A stretch of DNA of 64,000 bases from a virus. Position 1 is the stretch's first letter. Every line of letters starts with the position of its first letter. The stretch lies in the UHGV virus genome UHGV-0167633; one strand, written 5' to 3'. This document shows, piece after piece, positions 11,001 to 17,000 of the stretch. The position numbers were made by a program.

Positions 11001-14000
11001 CACCTCTCGTCACCCGTAATGAAATAGCCGAAGCGATCGCCTTGCATACAATCTGTATGCCGACACGGGAGATCCCCGGCGCAATTGCTAACTATTTCAT
11101 GATAACCAGGCGTTTTTATACCCGAACAGATAAGGCTGTGATCAACAGGCTACTGATAGCCGAGATCAGGGATTATTTGATTGAACAAGGACGTCTACGT
11201 TACGCAACAGTGGCAGCAGAAATGAGAAAGGAGGCACATAGAATGACCAGTAATAATTTGAATGTTAAAAAACCAGAATCTGTTGCTTCAGCTACGCCAT
11301 CACCAGCTGTGAATGTTATCTCCAACACTGGAGACACAATCGACAGCCAGACGCTGTTAAAGATGGTTAATGAGGCGCGCAAGCTATGTGGGGAAAATGA
11401 GATCCGTAATAACGATTTTCTCAATAGAATTAAGGATGAACTTGATGGGGAATTTTACGAAACTTTCGTAAAATCCCATGGCACAAGGGCCGGGCGCTCT
11501 TTTGAGGTCATAACCATGACCTACAAACAAGCCCTGCGCGTTGCTGCTCGCGAATCGAAAGCGGTCCGCCGTTCGCTACATACCATGATTCAGTCATTGG
11601 AACCTATAAATGTAGAAAATCAGCCTGATGAAATTCCCGTTCTGGAATGGCAGGGAGTACGCGTCGTGACAACCGAGACTCTTGCTAGAGGGTATGGCAC
11701 TACACCTATTCGTATTCAGCAGAACTACAATCGCAATGAAGAACGATTTGTAGAGGGTAAACACTTCTTTAAAATCAAAGGAGATGAGATAAAAAGTTTG
11801 CGACTATCTTTTAGCGAGTTGCAAATTTCCCCCAAGACCAGATCCTTAATACTCTGGACCGAACGCGGAGCGGCACGCATGTCTAAGATCGTAGACACAG
11901 AGCAAGCGTGGGCATTCTTTGAAAAACTGGAAGACAGCTACTTCCGGCAAAAAGAACAGCAACCGGTCACAATCCCCCAAACATTACCAGAAGCTCTACG
12001 CCTGGCTGCCGAGTTGGCAGAGCAGAAAATGCAGTTGGAACAACAGCTGGTGGCCGCAGCCCCTAAAGTAGATTTTGCCGACCGGGTATCAGTGGCTAAT
12101 GGAATCCTGATCGGGAACTTTGCAAAGGTCGTTGGACTTAAGCAAAACGCCCTTTTCTCATGGTTGCGCCAGAACGGCATTCTCATGGCTTTTGGTGCGC
12201 GCAAAAACGTACCGCGCCAGCAGTACATTAACGCCGGGTATTTCACGGTGAAAGAAGTGGTGCTGGATGATGAAAATGGCTACCAGATACGGCTGACGCC
12301 CCAATTAACGGGTAAAGGCCAGCAGTGGTTAACTCGCAAGCTACTTGATGCTGGCTTGTTAAAACCGGTGGCGTCCTTGTCTTAACGTATTCAGACCAGG
12401 ATTTGCCATAAATTACAGGCATGTGTACGATATGCCCAACCCTGTTTTTCAGGGGAGGCGCAACGTTATGCGGGGGTTATGAACTCCTGGATGCGTAGCC
12501 TCCAGACAGAAAAAACCCTCGCTACAACGTTGCATGGAGGCAACCAGCGAGGGCATTCCTTATGTCTGAACAACAAGAGGATAGCCGCAAGCAGTTGCTG
12601 TTGCAAGTATGCGGAGCTTCGTAATGACTCTTCAAAAAGCTTGCAAGTGGATTGTGACCAACATCATTGTTCCTGTCATCATCGGAGCTTCAAGTTCTGT
12701 GTTGGCATCAGTGATTGCCTCACTTCTCCACATTGCATAACAACATTGAAGGGCGTTAGTTCGCAGTGTAACAGCAGCGCGTTGCGCCCGAACAGGCCAC
12801 AGGGTAAAACCTGTGGCCTTTTTCGTTTTATCCAGCCACAAATCCACATTGAAAAACGCCTTATACAAAAAAACCTGCCAGCAAACTGGCAGGTTTCTGA
12901 GCAGATCGACCAACCCGATCTGGATCGAGTCAGAAAAATTTGCTCTAATAAATTTCGTTTTCTAAGTGCAAAGAATCACCATTCCGAGCTGGTGATTGAA
13001 GGTTGATGCAAATTTGGAGAAAAAATGCAACAAACATTCAATGCAGATATGAATATATCAAACCTTCATCAAAATGTCGATCCTTCAACCACTCTGCCCG
13101 TTATTTGTGGTGTTGAAATTACGACCGACCGCGCTGGCCGTTACAACCTTAATGCTCTACACAGAGCGAGCGGACTCGGTGCCCATAAAGCGCCAGCTCA
13201 ATGGCTAAGAACGCTGTCAGCAAAACAGCTCATCGAAGAGCTTGAAAAAGAAACTATGCAGAATTGCATAGTTTCGTTCGAAGGTCGTGGCGGCGGCACT
13301 TTTGCCCATGAATTGCTCGCTGTGGAGTACGCAGGTTGGATTTCTCCCGCGTTTCGGCTGAAGGTAAACCAGACATTTATCGACTATCGAGCCGGAAGAT
13401 TACAACCAGCTATTCCGCAGAGTCTCCCTGAAGCTCTCCGTTTGGCTGCCGACCTGGCAGAGCAAAAGCAACGCCTGGAGCAAAAAATGCTTATGGATGC
13501 CCCTAAAGTCGAATTCGCCGAACGCGTTGCTACCGCCAGCGGGGTTCTAATCGGCAACTATGCCAAAGTGCTCGGCCTGGGCCAAAACTATCTCTTCACC
13601 TGGTTGCGTGATAACGGAATTCTGATCGCAACCGGTGAACGCAGGAACGTCCCCAAACAAGAATACATATCCCGTGGGTATTTCACCCTTAAAGAAACCG
13701 TGATCGATACAAGCAACGGAAGCAGGATTTCTTTCACGACTCGTATAACCGGCAAAGGTCAGCAGTGGCTAATGAAGCGATTGCTTGATGCTGGTGTGCT
13801 GGTACCTGTCGCGGCAACGCGCTAACAGACGTAGTAAGAACCACCAGCATTGTAATGCTGGCTAAAGTCACTTTCCTGAGCTGTATAACGATGAGCGATT
13901 TTACTTTTTCTGGCTATGAATTGGCCTGCTTTGTAACACACTCCGGTCTATCCCGCAGCGCCGGGCATATCCTGTCGCAATGTGCAAATCTCGCGGCAAC

Positions 14001-17000
14001 AACCAGTGAATACTTCATTCACAAGCCTCACCGCATGATCGCGGCAGAAACTGGTTATAGCCAATCAACCGTCGTTCGTGCATTCCGTGAAGCTGTAAAC
14101 AAAGGAATCCTGTCGGTAGAGATTGTTATCGGCGATCACCGTGAACGCCGCGCTAACCTGTACCGGTTTACACCATCCTTTTTGGCCTTCGCACAACAAG
14201 CCAAAAATGCGCTGATTGAAAGCAAATTAAAGATCTCTTCAGCGGCAACCAAGGTTAAAGCTGTTCTCGCTAAGACATTGGCTTTATTTAATTTTTTATC
14301 CACACCCCCATGTCAAAATGATACCCCCTCTCCCTGTCAGGATGACGTGGCAATAAAGAATTAGAAGTCTCAATGTCGAAATAGAAAAAGATCAGTTTCC
14401 GGCGCTGCCGGAACGACCAAACTCAAAAAATTGACTTCATGGATCGCTGGTGCAAAAGCAAAGGCCGACAATCTGCGGTTATCCAAAAAACGCGCTCAAA
14501 AACATGAGTTCCAGCAGAAAGTTGAGGCAGCGGCCCGGAAATATGCTTACCTGAAGAGCAAGCGTTCTCCTGATATTGGCGGGATATCAAACTTCGATAA
14601 TCTGCCGCATTGCATGACGGTAAACGAAGCTCTGGATATGGTCCTATCTACAAGAAAAGAAAAGGAATTTTATATTCCAACTGGTTTTCGCGGATGATCG
14701 CGAATGATAGAATCTTTACGTGTATTTAACGCTCAATACACACTATTTTGTCACCAGTATTATTTTTAACGTTTTTATAGGTAACTTTTTCCATGAAAAA
14801 AGTAGTTTTAACGGCCCTTCTGGCATGTGCCTTGGGGGTTGCTGGGACTGCCTCCGCATATCAGCACACACTCTCCTTAGACTTTGCCCAAGGAAGCGCA
14901 ACGGTTAAAGGCGGAGATATAAAAGATCCAAAAGGCGTGAATATTAAATATCGCTACGAAATGGATTCTACGTGGGGTGGATTAGCTTCGGTCACTTACG
15001 AAAAGTCAAACACAAACCTATGGAATGCCGCCAAAGCCAAGGTTGAGTATGCCTCATTTACTTTTGGTCCGTCATACAGATTCAATGAATTAATGAGTGC
15101 ATACGGCTTGGTGGGTTTAAGCCATGCGGATGCAACAGCAAAACTGAATGGACAGTCATATGCTGGCTTTGGAACCGATTTTGCTTATGGACTTGGGCTT
15201 CAATTTAACCCATCTCCGCAGTTTGCAGTTGATCTCTCGTATGAACGTTCTAAACCAGGTGATCTAAGCAATAGCATTTGGATGCTTGGTGTCGGTTACC
15301 GATTTTAACTATTTAGTCCCTCTGCCCTACGCAGAGGGATTTATACTTTGCTCTGGTGATATTCGTTATGTTCATTGAGACTAACGCTATGACTATCCTG
15401 GTATCTATTCCCATCTATATACTAATTGGTGGACTGATATACGCATTAAGTCGATATATTTTGCGAGCTAATGCAGAAATGGCCTGGTGGGATCGTTTTT
15501 GGATAATGATTTTTTTTGGCATATTCTGGCCATTAGGGCTCATGTTTGTTGCAACATTTCTTCTGATGTGGATATTCACCCTTCCAGGTGATTTCTATAG
15601 AAAAAAAACCAGACATTGATACACCCGCTGCGGTGTGCTTGGGGCTATCAGCTTCAGGTATTACCCGAAAAGCAGATAGAAGAAAGCCCCAGTAAACATT
15701 ATGCGTCCCGCACAACGCTTAACATTAACCGGGGCCATACCTATGCTTAGCGTACTTAGATTAATCCTCTCCTCTGTCAAGGAGCAAGGAATTTTTTACT
15801 GCTATGCCGCCTTTCCAGTTATGGATTCTGCGACAAGAACAACCCCATGCTTACTTCGATCCGGATGTTCACTCCATATCTCGGATTCAGGAATACTTTC
15901 CCCGTCATAGCAAACACGTTCGCCGTCAAACGGGTAATACTGAGCGGCATCGGTGTCGAGGATAAACACTTTTAGCTCGGATGAGCGACGGGCGATGTGT
16001 TGCCAAAGAGCTTTTCCACCTTCGTATTGCTCATTATCACTGAGCAAAACAACACCAGCTTTTGAGGCTACGGTTTCGTAAACAAAAGTGGCTAAACCGA
16101 CATCCCGGACGATTCCATCAACCACGATACCTTCAATCTGGGCAACATCGCTATCCTCCCAGAACTTCCTTACCAGTACGCCTTCAAGCTGCGGGCGACG
16201 TTGAAGTTCAAGAGTAGCGACAACCTTATGCCGCATATCACCATCGATAACAGAAGGCGCAGCCTCTATTACAGCTGCAAATGGGGTTTTGGAATCCCAT
16301 ATAACCTGGTAAAGCACACCCTGGATGGTAACGCCGTCCAGGATCGAAAATCGACGAGCGACAGTACCCGGGGAGTACGACATTGGAATCACAGCCATTT
16401 TAGAGTCCCCCTTTAACAGTACAGGCACAAACATCTACCTCAATAATTGTAGTTTATTAGAACATTAATAATCTAACATAAAACTCCAGACAATGTTATC
16501 GATGCATTTTTATATAAAAAGGTTATAAAAAAAGCTCCCGAAGGAGCTTTAAAATACAAGGGATGACTCTTAATCCCACTCAATCCAGTTGTAGACGATA
16601 CGAAGTGACGGGCGCACAGCGGCAGTCACATCTTCGGTACTAAAGTCGATTGCATCACTGTAGATTTTGCAGTCCAACATTTCAATTGTTGTAGCAGCTT
16701 TTGTCACAGCGTTAACCCCGGAAGATTTGGATTCAGGGGTAGCAGCCATCGTGATATCAACATAGTCCTTCGCCGCAATGCGATCTTTAATGAACTGAAG
16801 AATATCGCCTTCGATAGTCTCCACGCACTGGACCTGGACTTCCCCAGAGTTTCGAATTGGACCGTGCTGGTTGAACTTCACACCATTCGGACCATAGTCC
16901 TCCACATCCTCGCGGGTCATTTCAGGAATTTGCGACGTGCGAACCAGTACGCTGATATCTTCATGGCCTGCAAAAGTGAGCTGGAATTCAGAAGATACCA

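What the first reader, a model, noticed from the sequence alone, without database searches (positions are those of the whole stretch)
13855..14697. repL lytic-replicon gene split by a single in-frame TAG
The 169-codon and 89-codon ORFs are in the same frame, separated only by TAG at 14362-14364 and 22 sense codons. The downstream part has no in-frame ATG, and the combined length (~281 codons) matches what I recall for P1 RepL. This looks like an amber mutation that would disable lytic replication while leaving the plasmid replicon intact, or a sequencing error, or stop-codon readthrough in a suppressor host.
Basis: partly seen in the sequence, partly recalled or inferred. Interest (0 to 1): 0.5.

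Follow-up and report, generated by a model that had tools for sequence, protein, structure and literature searches.

The report
Broken P1-type lytic replication gene
A P1-like phage-plasmid from a metagenome has its lytic replication gene repL cut by a stop codon that belongs to a unique cluster of nine base changes inside the gene's embedded replication origin; this is a probably defective copy of a well-known gene, not a new system.

Summary
The repL homologue (13855-14697) has one in-frame TAG at 14362-14364, replacing the family-invariant Lys170 codon. Reference RepL is 280-281 aa, so this is a broken gene, not two genes.

It is not a single point mutation. The window equals ENA metagenome contig ERZ1310773 NODE_401. 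It is identical to a sister-sample contig over 9.4 kb and to E. coli plasmid CP057476.1 over 4.2 kb, except for nine substitutions at 14331-14384, eight of them within 23 bp. I found this patch in no other sequence searched.

All nine changes lie in the ~90-bp core of oriL, and eight lie in the A/T-rich AT2 element shown experimentally to be needed for RepL-driven replication. The stop falls in a predicted disordered linker. It leaves the winged-helix domain but removes the conserved C-terminal helices.

Best reading: a private null allele of the lytic replicon in an otherwise intact phage-plasmid. The plasmid replicon and partition genes are intact.

An assembly or sequencing artefact cannot be excluded without the reads.

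Other P1-like elements repeatedly carry repL frameshifts in the same AT2 A-tract, so this spot is a recurrent breakage site.

Interest is modest.

The parts
12921..12955 (+). C1-controlled promoter PkilA/P53 with operator Op53 (OrepL) and Dam sites, driving kilA-repL
   Evidence: Aligned to the annotated P1 features. The hexamers and the operator ATTGCTCTAATAAATTT are identical in window, P1 and SJ46.
13025..13825 (+). kilA (KilA-N/ANT antirepressor-type protein), intact, 266 aa
   Evidence: 100% amino-acid identity to the CP057476.1 KilA with no stops. Pfam KilA-N and ANT are recorded on the same gene in L169.
13855..14364 (+). repL 5' part: 169 codons plus the premature TAG. It encodes the winged-helix N-terminal domain and half of the linker. 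Gene callers start at ATG 13891, giving 157 aa.
   Evidence: ORF list and translation. phrog_2418 and phrog_8046 match positions 1-169. PF26868 is recorded on the called gene. The AlphaFold2 model places the folded domain at residues 15-148, and its fold matches MarR-like winged helices.
14362..14364 (+). Premature amber codon (ancestral AAG, Lys170)
   Evidence: Alignment A1. Lys170 is invariant in the family alignment, which includes homologues of 47% identity.
14331..14384 (.). Private substitution cluster of nine changes at 14331, 14362, 14370, 14374, 14375, 14377, 14378, 14382 and 14384. Seven are transversions.
   Evidence: These are the only differences from CP057476.1 in 4162 bp and from sister contig ERZ1307775 NODE_475 in 9392 bp. 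The patch is absent from 513 plasmid and 516 E. coli records. It is also absent from the genome, viral and JGI metagenome collections.
14352..14394 (.). AT2 element of oriL (repL nt 498-540), a candidate DNA-unwinding element with a 13-mer-like motif at its 3' end. It is altered here at 8 of 43 positions.
   Evidence: Defined in PMC9948254. It is the most A/T-rich 43-bp window of repL in P1, SJ46 and homologues of 47% identity. In the window A/T falls from 79% to 74%, the A7 run is broken, and the 13-mer match falls from 13/13 to 12/13.
14324..14411 (.). Equivalent of the minimal 'T5' fragment that sufficed for RepL-dependent replication in trans. It holds all nine substitutions.
   Evidence: Mapped from the T5 primers in the supplement of PMC9948254 and the T5 result.
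14397..14413 (.). G+C-rich 7-bp inverted repeat (TTCCGGC / GCCGGAA) directly 3' of AT2, unchanged
   Evidence: Found by the repeat finder in the window and in SJ46. On the minus strand it scores as terminator-like.
14296..14304 (+). DnaA box 1 (TTATCCACA), intact
   Evidence: Position given in the PMC9948254 supplementary figure. The TTATCCA repeat is reported.
14479..14487 (+). DnaA box 2 (TTATCCAAA), intact
   Evidence: Same sources as DnaA box 1.
14365..14697 (+). repL 3' part, in frame but no longer translated from the repL start. It encodes the rest of the linker and the conserved C-terminal helices. The first possible restart is TTG 14431 (88 aa), with no obvious Shine-Dalgarno sequence.
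   Evidence: Translation. phrog_7057 and phrog_2418 positions 171-291 match. The invariant ARKYAYL block is shown. Helices 187-236 and 256-270 appear in the model.

Best explanation
This is the kilA-repL lytic replicon of a P1-like (SJ46/pRHB25-type) phage-plasmid, carrying a private loss-of-function allele.

A single compact lesion of nine substitutions in 54 bp, eight of them in 23 bp, lies in the core of oriL. That core is embedded in the part of repL that encodes a disordered linker. One of the changes turns the invariant Lys170 codon into TAG.

Shown:
- Translation from the repL start ends after the winged-helix domain.
- The conserved C-terminal helices are lost.
- The promoter, operator, kilA, DnaA boxes, hairpin, plasmid replicon and partition genes are intact.

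Inferred:
- The truncated RepL cannot initiate replication at oriL.
- After derepression the element therefore cannot start RepL/oriL-driven theta replication and would be a poor or non-productive phage. It would still be maintained as a plasmid.
- The cis-acting origin may also be weakened, because the A7 tract is broken and the 13-mer is degraded. Its A/T richness and duplex stability are nearly unchanged, so this second defect is uncertain.
- The lesion most likely arose as one very recent multi-nucleotide event, since nothing else differs from a sister-sample copy. The mutational mechanism is unknown.
For: Identity of the locus:
- establish homology, and one search shows the conserved promoter and operator.
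- PF26868 is recorded on the called gene.

The lesion:
- Alignment A1 shows the changes.
- They are the only differences from CP057476.1 in 4162 bp and from ERZ1307775 NODE_475 in 9392 bp.

Uniqueness:
- No record among 513 plasmids and 516 E. coli records exceeds 93.9% identity over 14300-14430.
- Exact patch words are absent from three large collections.
- Across 84 related loci, the six haplotypes seen in the 51-bp stretch each differ from their consensus by at most one base.
- Where at least 30 relatives cover the window (19.5 kb), this is the only dense cluster of private positions.

Full length is the functional form:
- All full-length family members found are 261-283 aa.
- Lys170 and a C-terminal ARKYAYL block are invariant down to 47% identity.

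Structure:
- The folded winged-helix domain is residues 15-148, the disordered linker 149-190, and the C-terminal helices 187-236 and 256-270.

Origin:
- The AT2 element and the minimal T5 fragment are defined experimentally in PMC9948254.

State of the rest of the element:
- About 60 other genes match CP057476.1 without stops or frameshifts.
- These include RepB-type Rep, ParA and ParB.
Against: - The source is a short-read-style metagenome contig with k-mer coverage of about 9. The reads were not available, so an artefact is not excluded.
- A cluster of nine substitutions dominated by transversions is an unusual natural mutation, and I found no template for it.
- CRISPRi knock-down of repL in P1 did not reduce plating (efficiency of plating 0.7). 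That paper nonetheless lists repL among known essential genes missed by its screen. The phenotypic cost of the allele is therefore less certain than classical genetics suggests.
- Duplex stability of AT2 is almost unchanged: -47.9 against -46.8 kcal/mol, compared with -58.0 for the experimentally dead AT2* allele. A cis defect is therefore not demonstrated.
Confidence: 0.62

Rival explanations
1. Assembly or sequencing artefact. The plasmid in the sample has the ancestral intact repL, and the nine substitutions were introduced by bad reads, read error-correction or graph resolution in a low-coverage metagenome assembly.
For: - The contig name indicates a SPAdes-type assembly at about 9x k-mer coverage.
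- A sister-sample contig of the same plasmid is identical apart from this patch and has intact repL.
- The patch exists nowhere else.
- The substitution spectrum is rich in transversions.
- An unrelated E. coli short-read contig breaks exactly in this A-tract, suggesting the site is awkward for assemblers.
Against: - The rest of the contig looks clean. There are no frameshifts or stops in about 60 conserved genes.
- Over 19.5 kb of deep comparison there is only about 0.13% of scattered private sites and no other dense cluster.
- The patch carries the lineage-specific flanking bases, so it is not contamination from a P1-derived vector.
- By inference, random read errors should lose to correct reads at this coverage, and there are no indels such as homopolymer errors would give.
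Confidence: 0.27
2. The gene is still functional. Either the UAG is read through (suppressor host or near-cognate decoding), or the N-terminal domain and a separately initiated C-terminal fragment (TTG 14431) work as a split initiator.
For: - The stop lies in a predicted disordered linker between two folded parts.
- Split repL genes, with N-part and C-part called as separate genes, recur in other P1-like elements.
- PHROGs holds a separate family for each half.
Against: - The window encodes no amber suppressor tRNA.
- No relative shares the stop.
- Lys170 is invariant.
- TTG 14431 lies 66 nt after the stop and has no evident Shine-Dalgarno sequence (read).
- No split form has been shown to be active. 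They look like ordinary homopolymer frameshifts in 4 of 61 sampled elements.
Confidence: 0.06
3. Short-patch gene conversion. The 54-bp patch was copied from an unsampled diverged oriL copy, for example a non-coding oriL on a satellite or plasmid that exploits RepL in trans. The stop would then be a by-product of importing non-coding sequence.
For: - The differences are confined to a patch with sharp borders inside the minimal origin.
- Non-coding oriL copies are replicated in trans by RepL in experiments.
Against: - I found no donor. Exact patch words are absent from the GTDB species genomes, IMG/VR and JGI metagenomes.
- All 513 PLSDB matches to this stretch carry the ordinary sequence.
- Homologues of 47% identity have a different AT2 sequence that does not resemble the patch.
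Confidence: 0.05

Closest known systems
Bacteriophage P1 lytic replicon (P53/Op53 - kilA - repL with internal oriL; RepL YP_006518.1, Pfam PF26868)
   Same: - The gene order, C1 operator and promoter, kilA, repL frame and length are the same.
- The DnaA boxes, AT2 position and downstream hairpin are the same.
- DNA identity is 97% up to window 14633.
   Different: - Codon 170 is TAG, and eight AT2 positions plus one upstream position are changed.
- The last ~60 nt of repL and the downstream genes follow the SJ46 type: a lom/ail-like outer-membrane protein gene replaces rlfA/rlfB.
E. coli plasmid pRHB25-C13_2 (CP057476.1), Salmonella phage SJ46 (NC_031129.1), and sister metagenome contig ERZ1307775 NODE_475
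   Same: - They belong to the same sub-lineage.
- The window is identical to CP057476.1 over 12284-16445 apart from the cluster.
- It is identical to the sister contig over 6994-16385 apart from the cluster.
- In all three, repL is intact at 280 aa.
   Different: Only the 14331-14384 cluster differs, and with it the premature stop.
Frameshifted 'split repL' alleles of other P1-like elements: CP042617.1, NZ_CP051361.1, E. albertii JAQALR010000026.1, IMG/VR loci L093/L107/L110/L160, and protein cluster P0012. PHROG families phrog_8046 and phrog_7057 model the two halves.
   Same: repL is interrupted inside the same AT2 element, leaving an N-terminal winged-helix fragment and an untranslated or separately called C-terminal part.
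   Different: - Those alleles are 1-2-nt indels in the A7/A5 homopolymers, giving products of 176-197 aa.
- The window has no indel. It has a multi-substitution patch and an in-frame amber codon, giving a 169-aa product.
repL(AT2) synthetic allele of Huan, Brown and Wang 2023 (PMC9948254), and P1 derivatives that lost the lytic replicon by deletion (pJIE250-3, PMC6906374)
   Same: - Multiple substitutions inside AT2 abolish RepL-driven amplification in cis.
- Natural P1-like plasmids lacking lytic replication persist as plasmids.
   Different: - The synthetic allele is synonymous and lowers A/T to about 51%. The window allele is non-synonymous with a stop and keeps 74% A/T.
- pJIE250-3 lost the whole module by deletion.

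Membership tests
P1 RepL / P1-type lytic replicon (PF26868) | Sequence homology to P1 RepL across the whole gene | tested here: met
   - tblastn of the CP057476.1 RepL gives 98.2% identity over 280 positions, with one stop.
- DNA identity is 97% to P1 and 98.9% to SJ46.
- PF26868 is recorded for the called gene.
P1 RepL / P1-type lytic replicon (PF26868) | Uninterrupted reading frame of about 280 codons | tested here: not met
   TAG at 14362-14364, codon 170. The full-length homologues found are 261-283 aa.
P1 RepL / P1-type lytic replicon (PF26868) | Operon context: C1-repressed promoter and operator, then kilA, then repL | tested here: met
   The promoter and operator are conserved base for base. 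kilA is intact.
P1 RepL / P1-type lytic replicon (PF26868) | Internal oriL core: AT2 A/T-rich element with a 13-mer-like motif, flanked by DnaA boxes | tested here: inconclusive
   - The element is present at the right place and both DnaA boxes are intact.
- Eight of its 43 positions are changed, the A7 tract is lost, and the 13-mer match is 12/13.
- Duplex stability is almost unchanged.
P1 RepL / P1-type lytic replicon (PF26868) | RepL-dependent replication from oriL | not testable with these tools
   This needs a plasmid-amplification or phage-induction assay.
Programmed stop-codon readthrough or suppressor-dependent gene | The stop is conserved among relatives and/or a cognate suppressor tRNA is present | tested here: not met
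   - The stop is absent from all relatives.
- The window's tRNAs are Asn, Thr, Ser(tga) and Met only.
Templated or targeted hypermutation (diversity-generating retroelement, quasi-palindrome template switch) | A second template copy of the variable stretch, adenine-specific changes, or new complementarity to a nearby repeat | tested here: not met
   - The window holds no second copy at up to 3 mismatches, and no shared word longer than 11 nt.
- Five of eight changes are at A in a stretch that is about 60% A, and G, T and C also change.
- The only new inverted repeat is a 7-mer, which is at chance level.
- I did not search for a reverse transcriptase.
Homopolymer-frameshift split repL alleles (phrog_8046 + phrog_7057 type) | Indel in the AT2 A-tracts producing an out-of-frame tail (176-197 aa) and a separately called 88-89-aa C-part | tested here: not met
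   There is no indel in the window, and the product ends at 169 aa with no out-of-frame tail. Only the location is shared.

The most novel reading that the evidence does not exclude
The oriL core (AT2), embedded in the linker-coding part of repL, may be a preferred site at which P1-like phage-plasmids switch off lytic replication. On this reading the recurrent A-tract frameshifts and this unique multi-substitution allele are selected events. They would convert a phage-plasmid into a plain plasmid, or make it insensitive to RepL supplied in trans by a co-resident P1-like phage. The window allele would then be a one-step double knock-out of both initiator and origin.
Probability: 0.15. Interest if true: 0.55.

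Novelty: new member of a known kind. Interest (0 to 1): 0.3.

Why it matters
If the sequence is real, it is a natural allele that hits the experimentally defined core of the still poorly understood P1 lytic origin. It comes with a perfectly matched wild-type sister copy. That makes it a ready-made pair for testing which features of AT2 matter (A-tract, 13-mer, linker codons), and whether RepL's winged-helix domain alone has any activity.

It also matters for surveys that use repL as the marker of 'P1-like phage-plasmids'. A measurable fraction of such elements carry a broken repL: 5 of 61 in an unbiased sample here, 4 of them inside AT2. They may be plasmids that can no longer replicate lytically.

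If it is an artefact, it is a warning about isolated substitution clusters in low-coverage metagenome contigs.

Tried and rejected
**Same allele elsewhere.** Nothing was found.
- Megablast of 14300-14430 against PLSDB and complete E. coli genomes gave nothing above 93.9% identity.
- An exact 32-mer and a 22-mer found nothing in the genome, viral and JGI metagenome collections.
- The 169-aa product is not in the 15-billion-protein collection.
- The 157-aa product, as gene callers start it, occurs only on the source contig.

**Template for the patch.** Rejected.
- I searched the window for approximate matches, shared k-mers and new inverted repeats.
- Only chance-level matches appeared: one 11-mer and one 7-bp inverted repeat.

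**Other explanations considered and rejected.**
- A small inversion, or a compensating insertion plus deletion: neither reduces the mismatches (by inspection).
- Adenine-specific (DGR-like) mutation: the spectrum is mixed.
- Illumina phasing errors, where the called base equals a neighbouring base: this fits only 3 of 8 positions (by inspection).
- Contamination from P1-derived vectors: the flanks carry lineage-specific bases.
- Suppressor tRNA: none in the window.
- A promoter or terminator created by the patch: none, and the scans give the same result for window and SJ46.
- A known RNA at the site: none. Rfam finds only C4, c4-a1b1 and sok elsewhere.
- General decay of the element or an error-prone assembly: neighbouring genes are intact.

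**Other dead ends.**
- No solved structure of a homologue exists.
- A literature search for the ENA accession found nothing.

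
Full report
**1. What is in the sequence**

- Window 13855-14697 is one reading frame. It has 169 sense codons, then TAG at 14362-14364, then 110 further sense codons and TGA.
- The mechanical ORF list splits it into 13855-14364 (169 aa) and a TTG-started ORF at 14431-14697 (88 aa). Twenty-two sense codons lie between them.
- One detail is wrong: there are in-frame ATGs at 14614 and 14638. They lie near the 3' end and could not restart a meaningful product.

**2. Which gene it is**

- The stretch 13000-15400 is 98.9% identical to Salmonella phage SJ46. It is about 97% identical to P1, P7 and many P1-like elements up to window 14633.
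- In P1 the homologous region is annotated kilA, then repL (281 aa). oriL lies inside repL, and the operon is driven by the C1-repressed promoter PkilA/P53. In SJ46 repL is 280 aa.
- The promoter hexamers, the three Dam sites and the C1 operator are conserved base for base at window 12921-12955.
- kilA (13025-13825) is intact.

**3. The stop is part of a cluster, not a point mutation**

- Aligned with SJ46 and P1, the window differs at repL nt 508, 516, 520, 521, 523, 524, 528 and 530. That is eight substitutions in 23 bp (14362-14384). The first of them turns AAG into TAG.
- The nearest sequenced relative is E. coli plasmid pRHB25-C13_2 (CP057476.1). It is identical to the window from 12284 to 16445 (4162 bp) except at these eight positions and at 14331.
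- Seven of the nine changes are transversions.

**4. Where the window comes from, and a matched wild-type copy**

- The gene product as callers start it (ATG 13891, 157 aa) is on record once. It is on ENA metagenome assembly ERZ1310773, contig NODE_401_length_67416_cov_9.13. The window is the last 64 kb of that contig.
- The neighbouring 463-aa Ant1 variant occurs on five contigs. The one returned, ERZ1307775 NODE_475 (coverage 4.9), is identical to the window over 9392 bp (6994-16385) except in the same 54-bp cluster. Its repL is intact.
- Nine differences confined to 54 of 9392 bp is not chance (about 1e-17).

**5. Uniqueness**

- Over 14300-14430, none of 513 PLSDB records and none of 516 records from complete E. 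coli genomes exceeds 93.9% identity. In other words, all lack the eight changes.
- Exact words of the patch are absent from the GTDB species genomes, IMG/VR and JGI metagenomes.
- Across 84 related loci the 51-bp stretch shows six haplotypes. Each differs from their consensus by at most one base.
- Where at least 30 relatives cover the window (19.5 kb), there are 32 private positions. The only dense cluster is this one.

**6. What the cluster hits**

Huan, Brown and Wang (PMC9948254) reported the following.
- A 43-bp A/T-rich element of repL, AT2, is integral to RepL-driven replication. It ends in the 13-mer-like GATCTTTTTGTTT on the minus strand.
- Eleven synonymous changes in AT2 abolished amplification in cis.
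- Combinations of three or four changes reduced amplification in trans.
- A minimal fragment (T5) holding AT2 and its immediate flanks sufficed as a target in trans.
- The IHF and DnaA sites were dispensable.

From their supplementary figure and primers, these elements map to the window as follows.
- AT2 corresponds to window ~14352-14394, and T5 to ~14324-14411.
- All nine substitutions lie in the T5 equivalent, and eight lie in AT2.
- AT2 is the most A/T-rich 43-bp window of repL in P1 and SJ46. The same holds at the homologous place in homologues of only 47% protein identity.

The effect on AT2 is as follows.
- The patch breaks the A7 run and lowers the 13-mer match from 13/13 to 12/13.
- A/T content falls only from 79% to 74%.
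- Nearest-neighbour duplex stability is almost unchanged: -47.9 against -46.8 kcal/mol, compared with -58.0 for the dead synthetic allele.
- A cis defect is therefore plausible but not shown.

**7. What the stop does to the protein**

- The family is small. It comprises one large cluster of 281-aa proteins with 5340 members, a few clusters of 45-51% identity and 261-283 aa, and three clusters of shorter N-terminal fragments of 154-186 aa.
- Asn169, Lys170 and a C-terminal ARKYAYL block are invariant.
- An AlphaFold2 model built on ten sequences (mean pLDDT 61) gives these regions:
  - a confident N-terminal domain at residues 15-148 (block means 72-89, apart from a loop at residues 95-99), which matches MarR-type winged helices;
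  - an unstructured stretch at 149-190;
  - a long helix at 187-236 and a helix at 256-270.
- The TAG therefore sits in the linker. The product keeps the DNA-binding-like domain but loses all the conserved C-terminal parts.
- The window encodes tRNA-Asn, Thr, Ser(tga) and Met, with no suppressor.
- The first possible restart is TTG 14431, 66 nt downstream, with no evident Shine-Dalgarno sequence.
- I infer a null allele for RepL.

**8. State of the rest of the element**

- About 60 genes of CP057476.1 find full-length, stop-free, gap-free matches in the window. These include the RepB-type plasmid initiator, ParA and ParB, structural genes, terminase and phd/doc.
- The element is therefore not generally decayed, and the contig is not prone to indels.

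**9. Real or artefact**

For an artefact:
- The source is a low-coverage metagenome contig.
- The sister copy is identical apart from the patch.
- The patch is seen nowhere else.
- The spectrum is rich in transversions.
- An unrelated E. coli short-read contig (DAAYYZ010000162.1) starts exactly in this A-tract with the ancestral bases.

Against an artefact:
- The rest of the contig is clean.
- The patch has no indels.
- Its flanks carry lineage-specific bases.
- At roughly 10-20x read depth, a branch made only of errors should lose to the correct branch (inference).

I put a real variant at roughly 0.7 and an artefact at roughly 0.27. Only the reads can decide.

**10. How such a patch could arise**

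- I found no template in the window.
- The patch gives no convincing new palindrome.
- The changes are not specific to adenine.
- No donor appears in the databases.
- The remaining candidates are one error-prone synthesis event, a short gene conversion from an unsampled oriL copy, or an artefact. This step stays unexplained.

**11. Context: the same spot breaks repeatedly**

- PHROGs has separate families for the N-part with a frameshift tail (phrog_8046, 192 positions) and for the C-part (phrog_7057, 89 positions).
- Complete plasmids CP042617.1 and NZ_CP051361.1, and E. albertii contig JAQALR010000026.1, have 1-nt deletions in the AT2 A-tract and are annotated as two genes.
- I sampled IMG/VR contigs through a neighbouring gene, which is unbiased with respect to repL. 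In that sample 56 of 61 repL genes are intact and 5 are broken, 4 of them by indels in the AT2 A-tracts.
- A 221-member protein cluster (P0012) is a further AT2 frameshift allele.
- Loss of the lytic replicon by deletion has been described for pJIE250-3 (PMC6906374).
- The window's allele is thus a new member of a known class, defective-repL P1-like elements, with an unusual mutation type.
- Some of the homopolymer indels may themselves be sequencing errors.

**12. Verdict**

- The interpretation 'amber mutation disabling lytic replication, plasmid replicon intact, or a sequencing error' is broadly right but incomplete.
- The lesion is a private nine-substitution patch in the oriL core.
- The gene and the system are well known, so novelty is low.
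- The curiosity lies in the mutation type, in its position in the experimentally defined origin core, and in the availability of an isogenic wild-type copy.

Noticed in passing
window 58690-59871 (- strand): A 393-aa ORF about 32% identical to an IS200/IS605 TnpB of CP057476.1. It sits between the lpa homologue (58201-58650) and the pacA homologue (60073-61266). CP057476.1 has no insertion at that place.
   Followed up: partly
window 54782-55270: The homologue of a 310-aa hypothetical protein of CP057476.1 (HVY22_23670) matches only residues 145-307 and contains one stop. This may be a second disrupted gene.
   Followed up: no
window 35022-35162: A 47-aa hypothetical ORF of CP057476.1 has an internal stop in the window. 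It is too small to judge.
   Followed up: no
window 14352-14394 and related loci L093, L107, L110, L160, L165, L166, L167: The A7/A5 tracts of AT2 carry at least five different 1-2-nt indel alleles in other P1-like elements. Each splits repL, making this a recurrent breakage site or a recurrent sequencing problem.
   Followed up: partly
L168 (E. coli TPA contig DAAYYZ010000162.1), equivalent to window 14385-16428: This 2046-bp short-read contig is 100% identical to the window. It begins exactly at the end of the AT2 A-tract with the ancestral bases 'AC'. Other partial RepL C-fragments also start at contig ends inside repL.
   Followed up: partly
window 14397-14413 plus the minus-strand T-run of AT2: On the minus strand the G+C-rich hairpin followed by the T-rich complement of AT2 scores as an intrinsic-terminator-like site. 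This holds in both the window and SJ46. The patch shortens the T-run beyond the first five T.
   Followed up: no
window 14793-15308 and 15633-15806: Downstream of repL there is a lom/ail-like outer-membrane beta-barrel gene in place of P1 rlfA/rlfB, as in SJ46. A sok antisense RNA match (hok/sok-type) follows it.
   Followed up: no
window 10423-10457: A minor cluster of four private substitutions in 35 bp lies upstream of the c4-a1b1 and C4 RNA region. C4 is at 10643-10728 and a1b1 at 10522-10574.
   Followed up: no
window 33222-35244: A tRNA cluster: Asn(gtt), Thr(tgt), Ser(tga) and Met(cat).
   Followed up: no
window 10994-12385 and 30281-32545: The Ant1 homologue is a 463-aa variant with an internal stretch unlike that of CP057476.1. 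The Dam-type methyltransferase is 754 aa, whereas the CP057476.1 protein is 1095 aa. Both are intact ORFs.
   Followed up: partly
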